DNA of 45,466 bases, taken from IMG/VR virus record IMGVR_UViG_2609459834_000005. One strand, 5' to 3'. A program made the translations under genes and the position numbers. This document shows, one piece after another, positions 32,498-40,260 of this stretch (its first letter is position 1; the number at the start of each line of letters is the position of its first letter). The notes under the pieces were generated by a model. It had not been told where the DNA came from and did not search any database. It was given only the letters and a program-made list of their open reading frames with translations. The stretch is from a virus. Taxonomy: Duplodnaviria; Heunggongvirae; Uroviricota; Caudoviricetes.

Positions 32498-32749
32498 TTA
32501 TTCTCCTGAAAAAGCAGAAAAGCCAGCTTTTATTCCGATCTCTTTCAATGCCTGTAATGAAGTGACAAACTCACCTTCGCGCAAGATAAATCCGTCCGTG
32601 ACCCGAGCATCCACAAAATTAATTAACGCAGCCCCATTCTTTCGCAAACACATAATGCGGTAATGACTAACAAGATTTCCATTTTCAACGCACACAGCAT
32701 AGAGGCCATCTTCACAAAAAATTTTACGCAGTTCTTCGATGTTCATCAT
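32498..32749 (-). CDS. hypothetical protein (83 aa); possibly Rem by length and position
   Basis: Track ORF between hokD terminator and ydfU; identity not recognised. Confidence 0.4.
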   Translation of the reverse strand: MMNIEELRKIFCEDGLYAVCVENGNLVSHYRIMCLRKNGAALINFVDARVTDGFILREGEFVTSLQALKEIGIKAGFSAFSGE

Positions 32750-32868
32750 CAGAATCCTTCCGGATAATTAGCTCTCCCCTTTAAGGGACCATCCCTCTTA
32801 TCCCTGCGCGCTACTTAAGTATTTTTGATTCTATTCCGGCACCGTCCAGAACTTCAAACGCGTTGAAA

Positions 32869-32897
32869 ATAAAAACAAAAACCCGCCGAAGCGGGTT
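32869..32897 (-). terminator. rho-independent terminator after hokD
   Basis: acccgc-cgaa-gcgggt hairpin followed on minus strand by TTTTTGTTTTT. Confidence 0.6.
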
Positions 32898-32966
32898 AAG
32901 TGCGGGTGCGTTGAGGATGCCTGCCACATCAGAGGTGGCGAGGGATTTCTCCCCCGCCGGGTCTCT

Positions 32967-33122
32967 TACTCCTCAGGTTCGTAAGCTGTGAAGACAGCGA
33001 CCTCCGTCTGGCCGGTTCGGATTCGTACCTCGCAGAGGTCTTTCCTCGTTACCAGTGCCGTCACTATGACGGTTAAACAGATGACGATCAGGGCGATTAA
33101 CATCGCCTTTTGCTGCTTCATA
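32967..33122 (-). CDS. hokD: Hok-family type I toxin HokD/RelF (51 aa)
   Basis: Hand translation gives MKQQKAMLIALIVICLTVIVTALVTRKDLCEVRIRTGQTEVAVFTAYEPEE. Confidence 0.9.
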
Positions 33123-33192
33123 GCCTGCTTCTCCTGTCAACGCAAAGCAGAAGTGTCACCTTCGGTGCGAAACAGAGATGTCATGCTTTGGT

Positions 33193-33480
33193 TCAGAGAA
33201 TGCGTTTGACCGCCTCGCTATATACTTCCGAGCGTTCTCTTTTCCCAACAGAAATCACGAAAACGACAACTTTCTCGTCTATAACCTGGTATACAAGGCG
33301 ATAGCCTGAAGACCGGAGCTTAATCTTGTAACAATCAGGCATACCACGGAGCTTGTTTGCTTCAATCCGGGGTGACTCAAGTACTTCAACCAGCTTCTTT
33401 TTCAACTGTTCACGTACCGTCGAGCCCAGCTTTCGCCATTCCTTTAGTGCCCGCTCGTCAAAATCCAGAAAATACGCCAT
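33193..33480 (-). CDS. relE: mRNA interferase toxin RelE
   Basis: 95-aa sequence matches remembered RelE. Confidence 0.92.
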   Translation of the reverse strand: MAYFLDFDERALKEWRKLGSTVREQLKKKLVEVLESPRIEANKLRGMPDCYKIKLRSSGYRLVYQVIDEKVVVFVISVGKRERSEVYSEAVKRIL

Positions 33481-33719
33481 CAGAGTTCATCCAGCGTCAC
33501 ACGTACTGGCTTAGGATTACGAAGCCGTTCTTTCACTATCTCCACAAGTTCAGCATCTTCATCACTCAGGAGTGTCTGTTTGAACGGCAAGCGTTCATTG
33601 TCAGCGATATACTCGAGCATGAGACGAAGCGCTTCAGAAGGAGTTACACCCATTTTTTCAAGCGCGGCGTAAGAACGCGCTTTAAGTTCATCGTCAATAC
33701 GCAGGTTAATGCTACCCAT
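33480..33719 (-). CDS. relB: antitoxin RelB
   Basis: 79-aa sequence matches remembered RelB. Confidence 0.92.
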   Translation of the reverse strand: MGSINLRIDDELKARSYAALEKMGVTPSEALRLMLEYIADNERLPFKQTLLSDEDAELVEIVKERLRNPKPVRVTLDEL

Positions 33720-33730
33720 GTCTTACACCT

Positions 33731-33756
33731 CTTGTAATTACAAATGTCATTACAAG
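33731..33756 (-). promoter_or_regulatory. relBE operator-like palindrome (CTTGTAAT...ATTACAAG)
   Basis: 26-bp region with inverted 8-mers just upstream of relB start. Confidence 0.55.
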
Positions 33757-34049
33757 TATCGCACTACAACATGCTTAGGGCAAGTCACGAAGGAAGTCAG
33801 AAAGTAGTCGTAAGAACGGTGATCACTGTCCGCTTTGTGCCAGGAGCAGCCATTGCTAAGTCCATCCTGTATTGTGCAGGTCAGCTCGTTTTTAAAGAGT
33901 CCGGCCATCATCTTACTGGTACAGACACCATATACTTTGTGACGGTCAGGCTACATATGCACAACTCAACTTATTCATCTATTTTTTGCTTTAGCATGTC
34001 AGTGTTGCTTTCTCGTCGGCGGGTGAGCGGTGACCTGACCTGTCGATAA
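33744..34049 (+). CDS. hypothetical protein (101 aa), YdfV-like by position and length
   Basis: Track ORF between relB and flxA. Confidence 0.35.
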   Translation: MSLQVSHYNMLRASHEGSQKVVVRTVITVRFVPGAAIAKSILYCAGQLVFKESGHHLTGTDTIYFVTVRLHMHNSTYSSIFCFSMSVLLSRRRVSGDLTCR

Positions 34050-34200
34050 AGGAACGTAGCACGTTTTATGCAACACCCGCATGCGGCAGAAAATTATTGC
34101 CGAACGTTTACCCCTGTCAACAAGCTTTACTTTCTGAGGCGCGCCAGCCCGCGAGGAAAACAATCTGAACATCAAACAATTAATGACACAAGAAATACGA

Positions 34201-34227
34201 TTAAAGATTTTTTTGTGCATGCCGATA
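34201..34227 (+). promoter_or_regulatory. sigma-28 (FliA)-type promoter for flxA: TAAAGATT-N11-GCCGATAG
   Basis: Close match to TAAAGTTT-N11-GCCGATAA, ~25 nt upstream of flxA start. Confidence 0.6.
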
Positions 34228-34251
34228 GTGCTTTTTTAAAAGGAGAAATCT

Positions 34252-34584
34252 ATGTCTGTCACAATTCAGGGAAATACCTCAACCGTTATTTCAAACAACT
34301 CCGCCCCGGAAGGAACATCAGAAATAGCCAAAATCACAAGACAAATTCAGGTGCTGACTGAAAAGCTTGGGAAAATCTCATCGGAAGAGGGGATGACGAC
34401 ACAGCAGAAAAAAGAAATGGCTGCATTGGTACAGAAGCAAATTGAAAGCCTCAGGGCTCAACTGGAGCAGTTGTTAAGGCAGCAGGCAGAGAAAAAGAAT
34501 AAAGACGCGACAGTTCAGCCTGATAAAAAAGAAGAGAAAAAAGACGATACAAATACCGCTGGCACCATTGATATTTACGTCTAA
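34252..34584 (+). CDS. flxA: FlxA (FliA-regulated protein)
   Basis: 110 aa MSVTIQGNTSTVISNNSAPEG..., matches remembered FlxA. Confidence 0.9.
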   Translation: MSVTIQGNTSTVISNNSAPEGTSEIAKITRQIQVLTEKLGKISSEEGMTTQQKKEMAALVQKQIESLRAQLEQLLRQQAEKKNKDATVQPDKKEEKKDDTNTAGTIDIYV

Positions 34585-34598
34585 GTGACAGCCGTATT

Positions 34599-34625
34599 GT
34601 GGCCCTCATCGGGCCACTTTTCGCC
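34599..34625 (+). terminator. rho-independent terminator after flxA
   Basis: gtggccc-tcatc-gggccac hairpin followed by TTTT. Confidence 0.6.
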
Positions 34626-34999
34626 ATCAGCCTTTTCTTTAAAGACATATTATCTTTGTATCATTTCTGATAGTTAACATTACAAGATATAAGTAATGGA
34701 CGCACTCCCAATTAGTCTATTTAAATCGCCACGAGTTTAACTGACAACCCATGATCAATTATGAATTGCAACTATTTCTGTAGTCACTTTTGTGGGGACA
34801 GTCCACAAAACTGCCAACTTCCGCTTCTTGCTCTTAGCGGACATTAGCATAGGCTATTTACCATAACGCCTCATTACGCGCACCGCCCAGACTGACTCAG
34901 CGCGTTTATGGCATATCCCCGGTAAAACAAGTAACAAACCACCCGAAAATGAACATCAGAAACGCGACTTAAGAATCTACCCTATGAATGGATATGCAC

Positions 35000-36400
35000 T
35001 CAACCGAATCGATCTTGGTTTCAATCTATTTTATCGGGATCAGGCTTCTTTTTAGGTAACTTCGGGGGCTTAACTTGCTGATGACTTTGCGTTCGGCGCG
35101 TAAGCCAGGGATGGTCAGCTTTAGATTTAACATAGTATTTTGAGCGTAAATCAATACGGGCATTATCCACTCGTTCATGGACACTCTTTTCATCATCCAG
35201 TGGTATAGGCTCCGGGCCATCAACATACTTTTCCCAGCCCAGCGCTTTCCCGTCATACAGAACGTTAATTTCACCGTCAAAGTTCTCACATACAGTAACA
35301 ACCGAATGCCTAAGTCGATATCCCCGGCCCTCACTGCGTACCTGAAACGCACTGCTTTTGTACTGGAAAGTGAGATTTTTAGACAGAACGCGCTTCGCCT
35401 GTAGGCTGAAGATATAACCCAGTTCCTCTTCAGAATGGTGCACATCAAGATGAGCATTATCAGTAGTACGAGGCGACGTAGCGAACCGGTTGTTATAGGC
35501 TTCAATAAAGGTCGGCAACCATGCATTTGCTGTTTCAATATCACTGATATTCTGAAGCCGCATTTCTTTGACCAGCCTGTCCTGTAGTGTCTGATTGGCG
35601 CGCTCTACCCGCCCTTTTGCCTGCGGGCTGTTGGCATGGATTGGCTCGATGCCCAGTGTCTTTATCGCACGAGTGAACTGGGTCAGCTCACCTTCCCGCT
35701 CTGGGTTATTTACCCTGAATATACTGTGTCTATCAGAGTAGAGAGCGAGCGGTACGCCATGATCATTAAGGTAACCCCGGAGGGTTTCCATGTAAGCCCG
35801 GGTTGTTTCAGCAGGCACAAAACGCAACGCCATCAACGCACTGGTGGCATCATCAATGAAAACGATCAGTGTACATCTGGGGCCTCGATTTTCAAACCAG
35901 TCATGAGGTGAGCCATCAATCTGGATCAGTTCACCGTAAGATGGTCGTCGCATGCGGCGTTGATATATACGGGCAATTTTACGACGGCGTTCACGCCATA
36001 ACCCCTCTTCTATCATCCACTTTCTGAGAGTTTCAACGGATAAAGATAAACCGTGTATCTCGCGCAATTTTTCGCACGCAAACGTAGGTCCAAAATCAGC
36101 GTAACGGCCTTTGAGGAGTGAAATTACTGTTGCTCTGAATTCAGTAGAAAAGGAATTATTAGGACGCTTTCCACGTCGGTGGGAAACCAGACCAGAAGGC
36201 CCTTCATTTCTATACCGTTGCACCAGACGTTTAACCTGCCGAATAGAAATGCCAATGCGTGCCGCAGCTTGTTCCTGAGTAATATGTCGATTAATTGACT
36301 CCTGAATAATCTGAAGTCGGTGGAGTTCCTTATGACTCATCGTAACAGTCTCTTTGATCATGAAAAATCCCCCAGAGAATTGTCTGGGGACATTTTAGAA
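35000..36400 (-). mobile_element. inserted IS-like element with a single DDE transposase gene (IS481/ISNCY-like); ends not resolved
   Basis: 446-aa transposase ORF; flanking ORF appears truncated at the element edge. Confidence 0.5.
35021..36361 (-). CDS. DDE-type transposase (N-terminal HTH, integrase-core-like catalytic domain)
   Basis: Track ORF 446 aa; family assignment uncertain. Confidence 0.75.
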   Translation of the reverse strand: MIKETVTMSHKELHRLQIIQESINRHITQEQAAARIGISIRQVKRLVQRYRNEGPSGLVSHRRGKRPNNSFSTEFRATVISLLKGRYADFGPTFACEKLREIHGLSLSVETLRKWMIEEGLWRERRRKIARIYQRRMRRPSYGELIQIDGSPHDWFENRGPRCTLIVFIDDATSALMALRFVPAETTRAYMETLRGYLNDHGVPLALYSDRHSIFRVNNPEREGELTQFTRAIKTLGIEPIHANSPQAKGRVERANQTLQDRLVKEMRLQNISDIETANAWLPTFIEAYNNRFATSPRTTDNAHLDVHHSEEELGYIFSLQAKRVLSKNLTFQYKSSAFQVRSEGRGYRLRHSVVTVCENFDGEINVLYDGKALGWEKYVDGPEPIPLDDEKSVHERVDNARIDLRSKYYVKSKADHPWLTRRTQSHQQVKPPKLPKKKPDPDKID

Positions 36401-36814
36401 TGGTTCAAAGGGGACATTACAGCTTGGTGTTAACAATAGCCTGCTTCTCCTTGCCTTCCGGCACTCGCGACAGATTATGTTTAGACGACTGTCGTAGCGA
36501 CGTATTTCTCCGTCAGGTAATGACCAGATAAGGTCCGGATCAACCACAGCAGGTTTCTTCACCTTTGCCCTCGAGAGTTTTTTGCGGGCGTTTTGCCAGT
36601 CCTTACGCGCCTGTTCAGACGGGAATAACCCGTAACCAGAGCTGTATACATCGCCACTGGCAACCAGCTCTCTGGCCAGAACGCTCATCAGATATCTTGT
36701 TGCCCCAGTTTTAGCTTCCAGTTGTCGTAACGTCTCGCGCCCACTCTGGCGTACGAGTTCCACCACCTGCCCTTTAATTTTTTCCCGCTCTTCTTGTGTA
36801 AAAACTTTTGCCAC
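36395..36814 (-). pseudogene. phage replication-region gene, probably 3'-truncated by the transposase insertion
   Basis: 139-aa ORF ending within a few nt of the presumed IS boundary; sits at the lambda P position. Confidence 0.35.
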
Positions 36815-36854
36815 AAGTCCTCCTGAACATTACTTTATACCCTAAAATCAACAC

Positions 36855-37874
36855 TTATCCCCTGAAACCAGGCGGAATTTCTGTATCCGGTTCAGAAATA
36901 TGATTCACACAACGCTGTACAGGTGAACGTCCCAGGCGGATGACCAGTTCGTCCCATTTTTCGCGGAGTTTTGACGGGCTCATGATGTTTTTTACCCAGA
37001 ATTGATCTCGCTGTACCCGACCAAACATTTCGCAAATTTGTCTGTGGCTTCTGCCATCCAGCATCCGCATTGTGCGCACGTCATTGGCCCAGGCTGTCCA
37101 GTTAGGCTCTTTTGGTCGCATGATCTCTCCATCGTCGCTGGCAGCCTGTTCGTAAAGGTTCACGATCCGCCCCCAAATCCACTGCGCACACGCCAAATCC
37201 TCCCTGCTACCCCACTGGCGTTTTTTCGCACTAAACACAACCGCGTCGGGGTTCCGGGTTAAAAAATCCTGTTCAGCGGTCTGCTGGTCCGGTTGCGAAG
37301 CTTCCGGACGAAAAGTGTTTTTATTCTCTGTAGTAATCTCTGTTGTATTCTCTGTAAGATCATCAGGCCATTTTGACCCGATGACATTGGGTCGTTTTGA
37401 ACCAATGGAGCGTTTCATTTTGACCTCTTCCATCGTGTCATTTTGACCTGATGGAGCGGCGCATTTTAAACCGATGGATTCGCTCAATTTGCCACCATCT
37501 AAAAGCTCGCTCCCGTAGTTGATCGTGTAGAAATTGGTCATATCGCGCTTTGATTTATTGAGCTTTTCACAACGCAAAAGCCCCAGCGTTTTCAGACTTG
37601 CAAACGCGCGCTTTAACGTTGACTCTGACCAGAATGGGAACTGTTCCAGCCATTGTTCCGTTGTGTTGTAAATCCAGCGAACACCATCACATTCCATGCC
37701 GGAATTGGTATCTCTCAACCAGCAATGCAACTGCTGCAACACAATGGCTTCATTTAAGCCAATCTTCATCGCAAGCTGTGTGTTTATAACCAGTGGGCGT
37801 TCAGCAAAAAGAAGGCTCATAATTCCATCCAGCTTTTTGTTGGTATTGCTGTCGATACGCAAGTTTGAAAGCAA
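36855..37874 (-). CDS. replication initiator O-like protein
   Basis: 339-aa ORF downstream of the cro/cI-like pair, with internal iterons. Confidence 0.65.
   Translation of the reverse strand: MLSNLRIDSNTNKKLDGIMSLLFAERPLVINTQLAMKIGLNEAIVLQQLHCWLRDTNSGMECDGVRWIYNTTEQWLEQFPFWSESTLKRAFASLKTLGLLRCEKLNKSKRDMTNFYTINYGSELLDGGKLSESIGLKCAAPSGQNDTMEEVKMKRSIGSKRPNVIGSKWPDDLTENTTEITTENKNTFRPEASQPDQQTAEQDFLTRNPDAVVFSAKKRQWGSREDLACAQWIWGRIVNLYEQAASDDGEIMRPKEPNWTAWANDVRTMRMLDGRSHRQICEMFGRVQRDQFWVKNIMSPSKLREKWDELVIRLGRSPVQRCVNHISEPDTEIPPGFRG
37325..37480. repeat. origin-like iterons inside the O-like gene: five ~16-bp CATTTTGACC-GATGG repeats at ~23-bp spacing plus three 12-bp TCTCTGT-type repeats
   Basis: Direct repeats read by eye at 37369, 37393, 37415, 37439, 37462 and 37325-37360. 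Confidence 0.55.
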
Positions 37875-38322
37875 TTGCTTTTTCTATAAGTTCGTCAGTT
37901 TCACGATCCACTACGGCAGGATCAGCAAAAAGCAGTCCGGACTCCACCACATCGCCATATTCTTTGTTTAACCCGGCGATCATGTACGTGATGCTTTTTC
38001 CGTCACTAATTTCACGATACAACCTGAAATCATTAATCCGAATAGCCTCCATAATTGCAGGCACTAGCGCCGTGAACTTTTCACGCTTATCCCTGGTGTC
38101 GATAGCCTTCCAGCGTTCGAATATCTTCACTCGATTAACGCCAAGTGCTCGCTGATCAACCGCGCCACCTTCATCTGTGACACGCTGAACATCGATGTTC
38201 GGGCGCTCTTTCAAAGCCCAGAATGCTTCAGTGATTAATATCGTCGCCTGCTCCTGTGTCATTCCTGGTCGACATATCCAGGCATCCAGAGCCTCACGAG
38301 CCTGTTCAGGAGTGATTTTCAT
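37801..38322 (-). CDS. YdaT-like protein (cII position)
   Basis: 173-aa ORF; segment RWKAIDTRDKREKFTALVPAIMEAI resembles Rac YdaT as remembered. Confidence 0.45.
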   Translation of the reverse strand: MKITPEQAREALDAWICRPGMTQEQATILITEAFWALKERPNIDVQRVTDEGGAVDQRALGVNRVKIFERWKAIDTRDKREKFTALVPAIMEAIRINDFRLYREISDGKSITYMIAGLNKEYGDVVESGLLFADPAVVDRETDELIEKAIAFKLAYRQQYQQKAGWNYEPSFC

Positions 38323-38533
38323 TGTTCAACCGCCCCGCCCGCTTCGTCTTACGATATTCGTCATAAACCTTGGGATCATACAGAAGCTCGCCGCCAGATG
38401 CCTCCTGTAGACGCATCGCGCGACCTTCAGGAACCAGCTCTTGCCATTGAGAAACAGCAGATGGGTCAACGCCAGCAGCTTTCGCTACTTTGGCTTTCGT
38501 ACCGTAAAAATTAATTACGTCTGATTTAAACAT
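38306..38533 (-). CDS. dicC: Cro-like repressor DicC
   Basis: C-terminus LVPEGRAMRLQEASGGELLYDPKVYDEYRKTKRAGRLNNENHS matches DicC; SD GGAGGTG. Confidence 0.85.
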   Translation of the reverse strand: MFKSDVINFYGTKAKVAKAAGVDPSAVSQWQELVPEGRAMRLQEASGGELLYDPKVYDEYRKTKRAGRLNNENHS

Positions 38534-38545
38534 CGCACCTCCAAT

Positions 38546-38561
38546 ATTGAGTTTTCTCAAT
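38546..38561. promoter_or_regulatory. operator-like palindrome ATTGAG-TTTT-CTCAAT in the dicC-dicA divergent region
   Basis: Perfect inverted repeat between divergent starts. Confidence 0.4.
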
Positions 38562-38610
38562 GCTAATCACTCAAGGAATCTCAAGTCAAGGGTTATTAAG
38601 ATATCTAAAT

Positions 38611-40202: not shown

Positions 40203-40260
40203 TTTCTGGTGACGTTTGGCGGTATCAGTTTTACTCCGTGACTGCTCTGCCGCCCTTTTT
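40203..40260 (+). ncRNA. dicF: DicF small RNA (ftsZ-targeting) with intrinsic terminator
   Basis: tttctggtgacgtttggcggtatcagttttactccgtgactgctctgccgcccttttt matches remembered DicF. Confidence 0.88.

What the first reader, a model, noticed from the sequence alone, without database searches (positions are those of the whole stretch)
37325..37480. Iteron array inside the O-like gene (candidate replication origin)
Five CATTTTGACC-GATGG-type repeats at ~23-bp spacing plus three adjacent 12-bp TCTCTGT-type repeats lie within the coding sequence, as lambda ori lies within O.
Basis: seen in the sequence. Interest (0 to 1): 0.5.

Follow-up and report, generated by a model that had tools for sequence, protein, structure and literature searches.

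The report
Replication origin inside phage initiator gene
The repeats are real and have the layout of a phage replication origin sitting inside the gene for its own initiator protein, as in phage lambda; the kind is familiar, but this version uses a different DNA-binding domain, has no helicase-loader gene beside it, and shares its layout with phages of very distant bacteria.

Summary
Observation confirmed. On the minus-strand O-like gene (36855-37820) there are six head-to-tail 23-bp units (37361-37499). Five are clear and the promoter-proximal one is degenerate. Consensus: CATCGGGTCAAAATGACCCGATG, i.e. inverted arms around AAA. Next comes a GATC, then a 40-bp block (37318-37357) with three 12-bp ACAGAGAnTAC repeats. 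That block is the least stable duplex in the gene.

The 23-bp period puts the units in all three reading frames, so the repeat is a DNA feature, not a peptide repeat.

The initiator is a mosaic. Its N-terminal winged helix has no Pfam model; the best fold match is the staphylococcal plasmid RepA initiator. Its C-domain is homologous to lambda O, and its last 21 residues resemble host DnaT. No P, DnaC or DnaB gene follows.

The same layout (N-domain, about 23-bp iterons, CAGAGA repeats) occurs in all 17 homologues examined, from Proteobacteria, Firmicutes and Bacteroidota phages. It also occurs behind unrelated N-domains, each with its own iteron sequence.

Best reading: a lambda-style origin (initiator binding sites plus unwinding element). 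It is a new variant of a known kind, common in E. coli (1,890 of 5,426 genomes), and not tested experimentally. Interest is moderate.

The parts
36855..37820 (-). O-like replication initiator gene (321 aa from ATG 37820; the mechanical ORF extends to TTG 37874)
   Evidence: ORF list. The annotated CDS in the 99.6%-identical phage mEp460_ev081 and in HannyBb maps to these coordinates. Matches phrog_391 'replication initiation O-like' at 5e-92.
37506..37820 (-). Coding region of the N-terminal winged-helix domain (aa 1-105), the presumed iteron-binding module
37477..37499 (.). Iteron slot 1 (promoter-proximal), degenerate here: GATGGTGGCAAATTGAGCGAATC on the gene strand
   Evidence: The same slot holds GAGGTCAAAGTGA in mEp460_4F5 and Kp4882-3.
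37454..37476 (.). Iteron 2: CATCGGTTTAAAATGCGCCGCTC (only the left arm is good)
   Evidence: 71 of 79 near-identical IMG/VR copies have C instead of T, giving GGTTCAAAATG.
37431..37453 (.). Iteron 3: CATCAGGTCAAAATGACACGATG (dyad symmetric)
   Evidence: (0 mismatches to the search motif).
37408..37430 (.). Iteron 4: GAAGAGGTCAAAATGAAACGCTC (core only)
37385..37407 (.). Iteron 5: CATTGGTTCAAAACGACCCAATG (9-bp inverted arms; shares the 9-mer TCAAAACGA with lambda iteron 1)
37361..37383 (.). Iteron 6 (next to the AT-rich block): CATCGGGTCAAAATGGCCTGATG
37358..37361 (.). GATC (Dam site) at the junction between the iterons and the AT-rich block
   Evidence: Read. The same GATCTTACAGAG junction is present in 4F5, Kp4882-3 and the Stx-phage O gene.
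37318..37357 (.). AT-rich, low-stability block with three 12-bp repeats (gene strand ACAGAGAATACA / ACAGAGATTACT / ACAGAGAATAAA); presumed DNA unwinding element
   Evidence: TRF. 30% GC, the lowest in the gene. Least stable 40-bp duplex in the gene and in 36300-38600: rank 1 of 2,261, 3.2 SD from the gene mean. A 40-bp stretch is 97.5% identical in Stx-phage O genes that have a different N-domain. The Glu codon in the repeats is GAG in 19 of 20 cases, against 101 GAG to 159 GAA elsewhere in the same genes.
36939..37253 (-). C-terminal domain homologous to the lambda O C-terminal domain
   Evidence: BLASTP against lambda O: 34% identity over 148 aa, E 2e-28.
36858..36920 (-). Last 21 codons (VQRCVNHISEPDTEIPPGFRG), which resemble the C-terminus of host primosomal protein DnaT
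   Evidence: phmmer against PDB: 2ru8, 6aep and 9zbt, DnaT residues 159-179. NCBIfam DnaT scores 16 bits against a cut-off of 201, so only the tail matches.
38560..38589 (-). pR-like promoter (TTGACT-18-TAGCAT) that would drive cro-like, cII-like and O-like genes through the origin
   Evidence: Consensus scan only.
36395..36814 (-). DUF977 / Ren-like gene directly downstream, in the place where lambda has P
   Evidence: Pfam DUF977 4e-22. phrog_142 'Ren-like exclusion protein'.

Best explanation
This is the vegetative replication origin of a lambdoid (mEp460 / Qin / CP-933O-like) phage or prophage, embedded in the gene of its own initiator.

Proposed mechanism, with the status of each step:
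1. Transcription from the pR-like promoter produces the initiator and passes through the origin. The gene order is shown; activation by transcription is inferred from lambda.
2. Dimers of the N-terminal winged-helix domain bind the six contiguous 23-bp dyad-symmetric iterons, core GGTCAAAATGACC. This is inferred from the fold, the dyad symmetry, and the fact that iteron sequence changes with the N-domain family.
3. The resulting nucleoprotein complex strains and opens the adjoining block of three ACAGAGA 12-mers. It is shown that this block is the least stable duplex and that the motif is conserved at DNA level. Opening itself is inferred.
4. The lambda-O-like C-terminal domain and/or the DnaT-like tail bring in the host helicase. 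This is inferred. No phage P, DnaC or DnaB gene lies between this gene and Q, so host DnaB-DnaC, possibly through the PriA/DnaT restart machinery, must be used.
For: - The repeats are real and far above chance.
- The 23/24-bp spacing places the units in three reading frames (SIGLK / SGQND / EVKMK), so the repeat is not a peptide repeat. An in-frame 27/42-bp repeat elsewhere in the window serves as a contrast.
- The AT-rich block is the stability minimum.
- The order is N-domain coding, then iterons, then AT-rich tract, then C-domain coding, as in lambda (PMC7466680).
- The N-domain is a winged helix whose best structural match is a plasmid replication initiator N-terminal domain.
- The C-domain is homologous to lambda O.
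- All 17 homologues examined, from phages of Escherichia, Klebsiella, Erwinia, Pseudomonas, Acinetobacter, Xanthomonas, Vibrio, Staphylococcus, Bacillus, Geobacillus, Listeria, Lactobacillus, Flavobacterium and Bacteroides, show iteron-like repeats at the same place (nt ~300-480) by eye. In 14 of 17 there are at least 5 positions with an 11/14 self-match at lag 20-26, essentially all of them within nt 290-480, against 0.1-1.4 in shuffles.
- Among 97 distinct viral contigs that carry the CAGAGA block, 92 have an iteron-like array in the 200 nt upstream, mostly at lag 23. None has one in the control segment 300-500 nt upstream, and 4 have one in the downstream control segment. Iteron sequences are specific to each N-domain family.
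- The module is 96.7-99.6% identical in three phage records, mEp460_ev081, HannyBb and PhiR42_1.
- The idea of an origin embedded in the organizer gene has experimental precedent in lambda, Stx phages, SPP1 and 80alpha (PMC7466680, PMC5499656).
Against: - No experiment: initiator binding, unwinding and origin activity are all untested.
- Only three of the six units have good dyad symmetry. Iterons 2 and 4 keep mainly the core, and iteron 1 is degenerate.
- The window's iteron 2 carries a minority T in the core.
- The CAGAGA repeats are mostly read in one frame (114 of 120 contigs) as T-E-x-T, so a peptide-level role for that block is not excluded.
- No DnaA boxes above chance.
- How the helicase is recruited is a guess.
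- I did not search the rest of the window exhaustively for a second origin.
Confidence: 0.8

Rival explanations
1. The repeats are only a by-product of a repetitive, low-complexity peptide linker between two protein domains and have no function as DNA.
For: The region does encode the inter-domain linker. The 12-bp repeats are in frame and encode TENT/TEIT/TENK. In 114 of 120 contigs the CAGAGA block is read in the same phase.
Against: The 23-bp units fall in three different frames and give unrelated peptides. The 23-bp phasing is conserved across phyla while the encoded peptides differ. Within the T-E-x-T repeats the synonymous choice is fixed: GAG 19 to GAA 1, against 101 to 159 elsewhere, Fisher p 5e-7, with the caveat that the sequences are not independent. 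TP21-L and mv4 read one copy of the same DNA motif in other frames.
Confidence: 0.03
2. The units are binding sites for the initiator or another regulator that act only in control (autoregulation, transcription roadblock, incompatibility or exclusion of related phages), while replication starts elsewhere.
For: Iterons in plasmids and extra iterons in Stx phages also have control roles (PMC7466680). Ectopic copies of the lambda origin inhibit phage growth (PMC4488673, abstract only). A Ren-like exclusion gene lies next door.
Against: The sites are coupled everywhere to the least stable AT-rich block, which control sites do not need. No other comparable out-of-frame repeat array exists in the window. 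Control and origin roles do not exclude each other.
Confidence: 0.07
3. The CAGAGA block is mainly a conserved recombination joint (module boundary) that lets N-domain-plus-iteron cassettes be swapped onto different C-terminal domains; it is not an unwinding element.
For: A 40-bp stretch is 97.5% identical in Stx-phage O genes that are otherwise unrelated. Similarity to 4F5 and the Klebsiella phages ends close to it, and their C-domains differ (Phg_2220_C in Kp4882-3). The block follows at least six different N-domain families.
Against: It is the thermodynamic minimum of the region. It always sits directly after the iterons, where lambda has its AT-rich tract. The motif persists in Firmicutes and Bacteroidota phages, where exchange with enterobacterial phages is unlikely. 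Both roles can coexist.
Confidence: 0.1
4. The array is an inactive relic in a decaying prophage.
For: The window carries an IS transposase about 500 bp downstream (35021-36361) and Qin-like features (DicF, relE-like, cspA leaders). Iteron 2 has a minority base. Some IMG/VR copies are frameshifted.
Against: The gene is intact. It is 99.6% identical to the gene of phage mEp460_ev081 and 96.7-97.5% identical to those of HannyBb and PhiR42_1. 76 of 80 IMG/VR copies are full length.
Confidence: 0.05

Closest known systems
Phage lambda ori within gene O (O/P system)
   Same: Iterons with internal dyad symmetry around an A-rich centre: lambda TCCCTCAAAACGAGGGA, here GGGTCAAAATGACCC, with the 9-mer TCAAAACGA shared with iteron 5. 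They sit in the linker-coding middle of the initiator gene and are followed in the direction of pR transcription by an AT-rich tract. The C-terminal domain is homologous (34% identity, E 2e-28).
   Different: Six contiguous 23-bp units instead of four 18-19-bp units with spacers. The N-terminal domain is not PF04492 and is not detectably related by hhalign. The AT-rich tract is made of three ACAGAGA 12-mers. There is no P gene; a DUF977/Ren-like gene follows. The C-terminal tail resembles DnaT.
Stx-phage origins (933W, P27) with six iterons
   Same: Six iterons inside O, only some of them strongly bound in vitro, but the weak ones are still needed (PMC7466680). That is a precedent for the mix of good and degenerate units here.
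   Different: Those are lambda-type iterons and true lambda-type O/P proteins. The Stx2_14040-type O gene that shares the 40-bp CAGAGA block has yet another N-domain, has GGGAAAC-type iterons, and is followed by a DnaB-like helicase gene.
RepA_N-type plasmid initiators of Gram-positive bacteria (structure 4pta) and the DnaD/DnaB N-terminal winged helix
   Different: No sequence-level membership: no Pfam RepA_N or DnaD_N hit. This is a phage, not a plasmid, and the C-terminal domains differ.
SPP1 G38P/oriL and staphylococcal phage 80alpha ORF20 (replisome organizers with an embedded origin)
   Same: The origin is embedded in the organizer gene; 80alpha ORF20 cannot be complemented in trans (PMC5499656). 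Staphylococcal phage 96 ORF015 is a 50%-identical N-domain homologue with GGACAAAATGGCCCGA iterons at the same place.
   Different: Those phages encode a helicase loader and/or helicase next to the organizer. I did not test whether 80alpha ORF20 or G38P belongs to this N-domain family.
E. coli DnaT (primosomal protein I)
   Same: The last 21 residues are nearly identical: SEPDTEIPPGFRG here, SEPDSQIPPGFRG in DnaT. This explains the database label 'Primosomal protein I'.
   Different: Only the tail matches: NCBIfam DnaT scores 16 bits against a cut-off of 201. The rest of the protein is unrelated.

Membership tests
Lambda-type origin (ori-lambda in O, O/P system) | Several direct repeats (iterons), each with internal dyad symmetry, in the middle of the initiator gene | tested here: met
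   Six 23-bp slots at 37361-37499. Units 3, 5 and 6 have 7-8 of 9 matching inverted arm positions.
Lambda-type origin (ori-lambda in O, O/P system) | AT-rich, easily melted tract directly after the iterons in the direction of transcription | tested here: met
   37318-37357: 30% GC and the least stable 40-mer in 36300-38600.
Lambda-type origin (ori-lambda in O, O/P system) | Initiator N-terminal domain belongs to Pfam PF04492 (Phage_rep_O) | tested here: not met
   No hit at E<=0.01, while lambda O as a control gives 5.7e-36. hhalign probability is 0.3%.
Lambda-type origin (ori-lambda in O, O/P system) | C-terminal domain homologous to lambda O | tested here: met
   34% identity over 148 aa, E 2e-28.
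Lambda-type origin (ori-lambda in O, O/P system) | Dedicated helicase-loader gene (P, or a DnaC/DnaB analogue) directly downstream | tested here: not met
   The next gene is DUF977/Ren-like. None of the nine ORFs of 70 aa or more that I scanned between it and Q matches a helicase or loader family, and none is annotated in the relatives.
Lambda-type origin (ori-lambda in O, O/P system) | Initiator binds the iterons and the fragment supports replication | not testable with these tools
   Needs EMSA or footprinting and an ori-plasmid assay.
RepA_N / DnaD-N-like winged-helix initiators with a gene-embedded origin | N-terminal winged-helix fold of the RepA-NTD / DnaD-NTD type | tested here: met
RepA_N / DnaD-N-like winged-helix initiators with a gene-embedded origin | Sequence membership in Pfam RepA_N or DnaD_N | tested here: not met
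   No such hit for the window protein. One of the 10 homologues hits DnaD_N at E 0.22 only.
Iteron plasmid origins (RepE/pi/TrfA type) | DnaA boxes next to the iterons and the AT-rich repeats | tested here: not met
   TTWTNCACA: 4 hits in the window against 4.3 expected, none within the iterons or the AT-rich block.
DnaT (primosomal protein I) | Full-length match to the DnaT family model | tested here: not met
   NF002770 scores 16.3 bits against a cut-off of 201. Only residues 301-321 align.

The most novel reading that the evidence does not exclude
The window shows one instance of an ancient, portable origin cassette that has not been named. It consists of a winged-helix N-domain, a tandem array of roughly 23-bp dyad-symmetric iterons that the domain recognises, and a DNA-level conserved run of CAGAGA repeats spaced 10-12 bp apart that acts as a sequence-specific unwinding or loading element. 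The cassette is shared by phages of Proteobacteria, Firmicutes and Bacteroidota and by several unrelated N-domain families, and it is fused to interchangeable C-terminal modules. In this E. coli version the C-terminal DnaT-like tail would plug the phage origin directly into the host PriA/PriB/DnaT-DnaC restart pathway, which would make a phage helicase loader unnecessary.
Probability: 0.3. Interest if true: 0.6.

Novelty: new variant of a known kind. Interest (0 to 1): 0.4.

Why it matters
This origin type is in about a third of complete E. coli genomes (1,890 of 5,426). Its initiator domain has about 9,500 cluster representatives but no Pfam model, no solved structure and, as far as I could find, no described origin.

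Annotating it would place the replication origin in many lambdoid and Qin-like prophages. It would also give a simple DNA signature for finding phage origins: 23-bp iterons followed by CAGAGA repeats.

The lack of a helicase loader, together with a DnaT-like tail, suggests a testable route by which a phage could borrow the host restart machinery.

The principle itself, an origin inside the initiator gene, is textbook.

Tried and rejected
- Pfam and NCBIfam gave no family for the initiator. Only chance-level Slx4 and the DnaT tail turned up.
- A sequence search of PDB with an N-domain profile found only a marginal winged-helix regulator, E 0.35.
- A profile of the C-domain found nothing in PDB.
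- hhalign of the N-domain against lambda O found no relationship. That is a weak test because the template was a single sequence.
- DnaA boxes are at chance level.
- Single-strand folding of the region gave z -2.3, which reflects the iteron palindromes; the CAGAGA block stays unpaired. This was not informative beyond that.
- Rfam found no RNA family in the region.
- The promoter scan gives only one weak pR-like site.
- The best 80 IMG/VR loci were all about 99% identical, so they showed only that the iteron cores are nearly invariant in the population, not selection.
- The 2026 preprimosome paper does not say what the extreme DnaT C-terminus binds.
- Literature searches found no description of this particular origin or of the CAGAGA element. 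The library lacks most subscription-journal reviews, including Weigel and Seitz 2006, so absence of a prior description is not established.
- An error on my side: one Pfam call failed on wrong coordinates and was repeated.

Full report
**1. What is in the sequence**

The finding lies inside a minus-strand gene, 36855-37820. It encodes 321 aa from the ATG used in the annotated relatives; the mechanical ORF runs up to a TTG at 37874.

Read in the gene's direction, the DNA after codon ~105 consists of six head-to-tail 23-bp units:
- I1 37499-37477 GATGGTGGCAAATTGAGCGAATC
- I2 37476-37454 CATCGGTTTAAAATGCGCCGCTC
- I3 37453-37431 CATCAGGTCAAAATGACACGATG
- I4 37430-37408 GAAGAGGTCAAAATGAAACGCTC
- I5 37407-37385 CATTGGTTCAAAACGACCCAATG
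- one extra base
- I6 37383-37361 CATCGGGTCAAAATGGCCTGATG

The idealised unit is a palindrome, CATCGGGTCA-AAA-TGACCCGATG. I3, I5 and I6 keep both arms, I2 and I4 keep mainly the core, and I1 is degenerate.

Directly after I6 comes a GATC (37358-37361). Then follow three 12-bp repeats, ACAGAGAATACA / ACAGAGATTACT / ACAGAGAATAAA (37357-37322; TRF).

The array has a sixth slot and extends to 37499.

**2. More than chance, and a DNA feature**

- The 17-nt motif with up to 3 mismatches occurs 6 times in the window against 0.26 expected. Four of the hits are in phase here.
- The locus is the strongest cluster of 18-30-bp-lag self-similarity in the 45-kb window. The only comparable cluster (4009-4174) has 27- and 42-bp spacing, in frame, inside a 916-aa ORF, so it is an ordinary peptide repeat.
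- The 23-bp period is not a multiple of three. I2, I5 and I6 are read as (S/V)IG(L/S)K, I3 as SGQND and I4 as EVKMK. The repeat is therefore maintained at the DNA level.
- The 12-mer block is 30% GC. By nearest-neighbour energies it is the least stable 40-bp duplex in the gene and in the whole 36300-38600 region: rank 1 of 2,261, and in the top 1.3% of the window.

**3. Context**

The window is a lambdoid phage or prophage. The gene is 99.6% identical to that of Escherichia phage mEp460_ev081 and 96.7-97.5% identical to those of HannyBb and PhiR42_1. There it is labelled 'Primosomal protein I', 'replication initiation O-like protein' or 'DNA replication protein O'.

Upstream on the same strand lie a pR-like promoter (consensus scan only), a P22-Cro-like gene and a cII-like gene. 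Opposite is a cI-like repressor gene.

Downstream, where lambda has P, is a DUF977/Ren-like gene. After that come an IS transposase, a RelE-like toxin gene, small ORFs, an HNH-endonuclease-family gene and Q. I found no P, DnaC or DnaB homologue there, and none is annotated in the relatives.

The 221-bp origin segment is present in 1,890 of 5,426 complete E. coli genomes.

**4. The protein is a mosaic**

- Residues 1-105 have no Pfam family. Lambda O as a positive control hits PF04492 at 5.7e-36. There is no solved relative by sequence.
- The family is large: 9,489 representatives at E<=1e-3.
- Residues ~147-294 are homologous to the lambda O C-terminal half (34% identity, E 2e-28).
- The last 21 residues (…SEPDTEIPPGFRG) are almost those of E. 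coli DnaT. Only the tail matches.
- The same tail ends the mEp460_4F5 protein. It also ends the Klebsiella Kp4882-3 protein, whose C-domain is a different Pfam family, Phg_2220_C. It therefore behaves as a portable terminal motif.

**5. Comparative test within the N-domain family**

tblastn with the N-domain finds 148 phage records, at 30-60% identity in phages of very distant hosts. I read 17 genes, from phages of:
- Proteobacteria: Escherichia, Klebsiella (two types), Erwinia, Pseudomonas, Acinetobacter, Xanthomonas, Vibrio (two types)
- Firmicutes: Staphylococcus, Bacillus, Geobacillus, Listeria, Lactobacillus
- Bacteroidota: Flavobacterium, Bacteroides

In all of them, the DNA just after the N-domain coding part holds tandem dyad-symmetric units with a CAAAATG-like centre and host-specific flanks. 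Examples are GAGGGCAAATTGCCCTC, GGGACAAAATGGCCC, GTGTCAAAATGA, TTGCAGAAATGAACA and CCTACCCAAAATGGGG. These are followed immediately by CAGAGA/CAGATA repeats, such as AATACCAGAGACTACACAGAGACT.

Quantitatively, 14 of 17 genes have at least 5 positions with an 11/14 self-match at lag 20-26. Essentially all of these lie at nt 290-480 of the gene, against 0.1-1.4 in shuffles.

**6. Comparative test starting from the other end**

- The motif lies a median 465 nt into an ORF of median 309 aa.
- 80 loci have the window-type N-domain. The others have at least six other N-terminal families, all of replisome-organizer appearance.
- Among 97 distinct upstream segments, 92 (66 of 67 with the window-type N-domain, 26 of 30 others) have an iteron-like array in the 200 nt before the motif, mostly at lag 23. 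None of the 97 has one in the control segment 300-500 nt upstream, and 4 of 97 have one in the downstream control.
- The iteron sequence differs with the N-domain family: GGGAAAACCAGCAAACTAG, GACCCTCCCCATTT, GGTCAAAAACGACCA and others.

So position, period and the CAGAGA block are constant, while the repeat sequence tracks the DNA-binding domain. This is what is expected if the repeats are the binding sites of that domain. The search is biased by the exact motif; the flanking control segments control for background.

**7. The CAGAGA block: DNA or peptide?**

Most copies are read as (T/P/S)-E-x-T, so a linker-peptide role is possible. Three observations point to a DNA-level constraint:
- Within peptide-defined T-E-x-T repeats, Glu is GAG 19 times and GAA once. 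In the rest of the same genes GAG:GAA is 101:159 (Fisher p 5e-7). The preceding codon always ends in CA, even in low-GC Staphylococcus and Bacillus phages. The sequences are not independent, so the p-value is indicative only.
- TP21-L (spacing 11 and 10) and mv4 read one copy of the same DNA in another frame.
- A 40-bp stretch is 97.5% identical between this gene and Stx-phage O genes that are otherwise unrelated.

The block may also serve as a recombination joint. Similarity to 4F5 and to the Klebsiella phages covers the N-domain plus iterons and ends near it, with different C-domains beyond.

**8. Interpretation**

The best-supported reading is a lambda-style origin: iterons bound by dimers of the N-terminal winged helix, an adjacent unwinding element, and transcription from pR through the site.
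- Shown: the anatomy, its non-randomness, its DNA-level nature, the stability minimum, the protein folds and homologies, and the co-variation across families.
- Inferred: binding, opening, and helicase recruitment.

Because no phage loader or helicase gene is present, host DnaB-DnaC must be used. The lambda-O-like C-domain normally binds P, which is absent here. The DnaT-like tail suggests contact with the host restart primosome, but the literature I could read does not say what that tail binds. I hold this step at low confidence.

**9. Known or new**

An origin inside the initiator gene is classical. It is documented for lambda and Stx phages (PMC7466680) and for SPP1, and is suggested for 80alpha by the failure of ORF20 to be complemented in trans (PMC5499656). 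From my own knowledge, RepA_N plasmids do the same.

This instance fails two defining features of the lambda O/P family (N-domain family and P partner) and meets the others. I therefore file it as a new variant of a known kind rather than a member of the lambda family.

I found no paper that describes this origin or the cross-phylum layout of 23-bp iterons plus CAGAGA. The library is incomplete, so prior description cannot be excluded.

**10. Verdict**

Confidence that this is the phage origin is about 0.8. Interest is moderate (0.4): the principle is ordinary, but the element is widespread, unannotated, and has an unusual helicase-recruitment question attached.

Noticed in passing
window 36858-36920 (-): The last 21 residues of the initiator are nearly identical to the C-terminus of host DnaT. 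The same tail ends homologues that have a different C-terminal domain (mEp460_4F5; Klebsiella Kp4882-3 with Phg_2220_C). It behaves as a portable terminal motif with no known partner.
   Followed up: partly
window 30336-36855 (-): No P, DnaC or DnaB-type gene lies between the initiator gene and Q. The slot after the initiator holds a DUF977/Ren-like gene (36395-36814).
   Followed up: partly
window 35021-36361 (-): An IS transposase (446 aa, phrog_8463) is inserted just downstream of the DUF977 gene. The same element at 99.4% identity is in phage PhiR42_1. mEp460_ev081 has a 1,350-nt 'hypothetical' CDS on the other strand in its corresponding region, which I did not compare with this transposase.
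   Followed up: partly
window 40204-40255 (+); 26274-26659 (-); 29170-29562 (-); 1430-1628 (-): Rfam finds DicF RNA, two cspA-type thermoregulator leaders and an IS009 RNA. The element therefore resembles the Qin/CP-933O group of lambdoid prophages.
   Followed up: no
window 33193-33480 (-): RelE-like toxin gene (phrog_1213) in the early-right operon, with an adjacent small ORF at 33480-33719.
   Followed up: no
window 37454-37476: Iteron 2 of this window has T in the core (GGTTTAAAATG), where 71 of 79 near-identical IMG/VR copies have C (GGTTCAAAATG). It is a minority allele in a binding-site core.
   Followed up: partly
IMG/VR loci L015-L094 (one copy): One copy is shifted relative to the window from within iteron 3 onward, in a way that suggests loss of one repeat unit, which would frameshift the gene. 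Four of 80 copies have truncated ORFs. Which locus carries the shift, and the exact indel, were not checked.
   Followed up: no
window 37385-37407 and lambda J02459 39034-39051 (L006 1035-1052): Window iteron 5 and lambda iteron 1 share the 9-mer TCAAAACGA, although the two N-terminal domains show no detectable sequence relationship. Lambda also has a single CAGAGAAT just after its AT-rich tract.
   Followed up: partly
viral contigs L101-L220: The ACAGAGAnTACnACAGAGA block follows at least six different replisome-organizer N-domain families. In each it is preceded by family-specific iterons, mostly at a 23-bp period. This could serve as a general DNA signature for phage origins.
   Followed up: partly
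protein representatives P0125, P0128, P0132, P0143 and others: Many family members of 400-880 aa match the N-domain in two stretches, i.e. they carry tandem copies of the winged helix. I did not look at their origins or context.
   Followed up: no
window 4009-4174, inside ORF 1971-4721 (-): In-frame 27- and 42-bp repeats in a 916-aa ORF, i.e. ordinary peptide repeats. I used them only as a contrast to the out-of-frame iterons.
   Followed up: partly
window 25025-25066: A 21-bp tandem repeat, 2 copies (ACATAGTGTTAGTAAAACGACA). Not examined.
   Followed up: no
window 4388-4404 (-) and 21406-21422 (-): Two isolated 3-mismatch matches to the iteron motif lie elsewhere in the window. They are single copies and probably chance, but they were not examined.
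   Followed up: no
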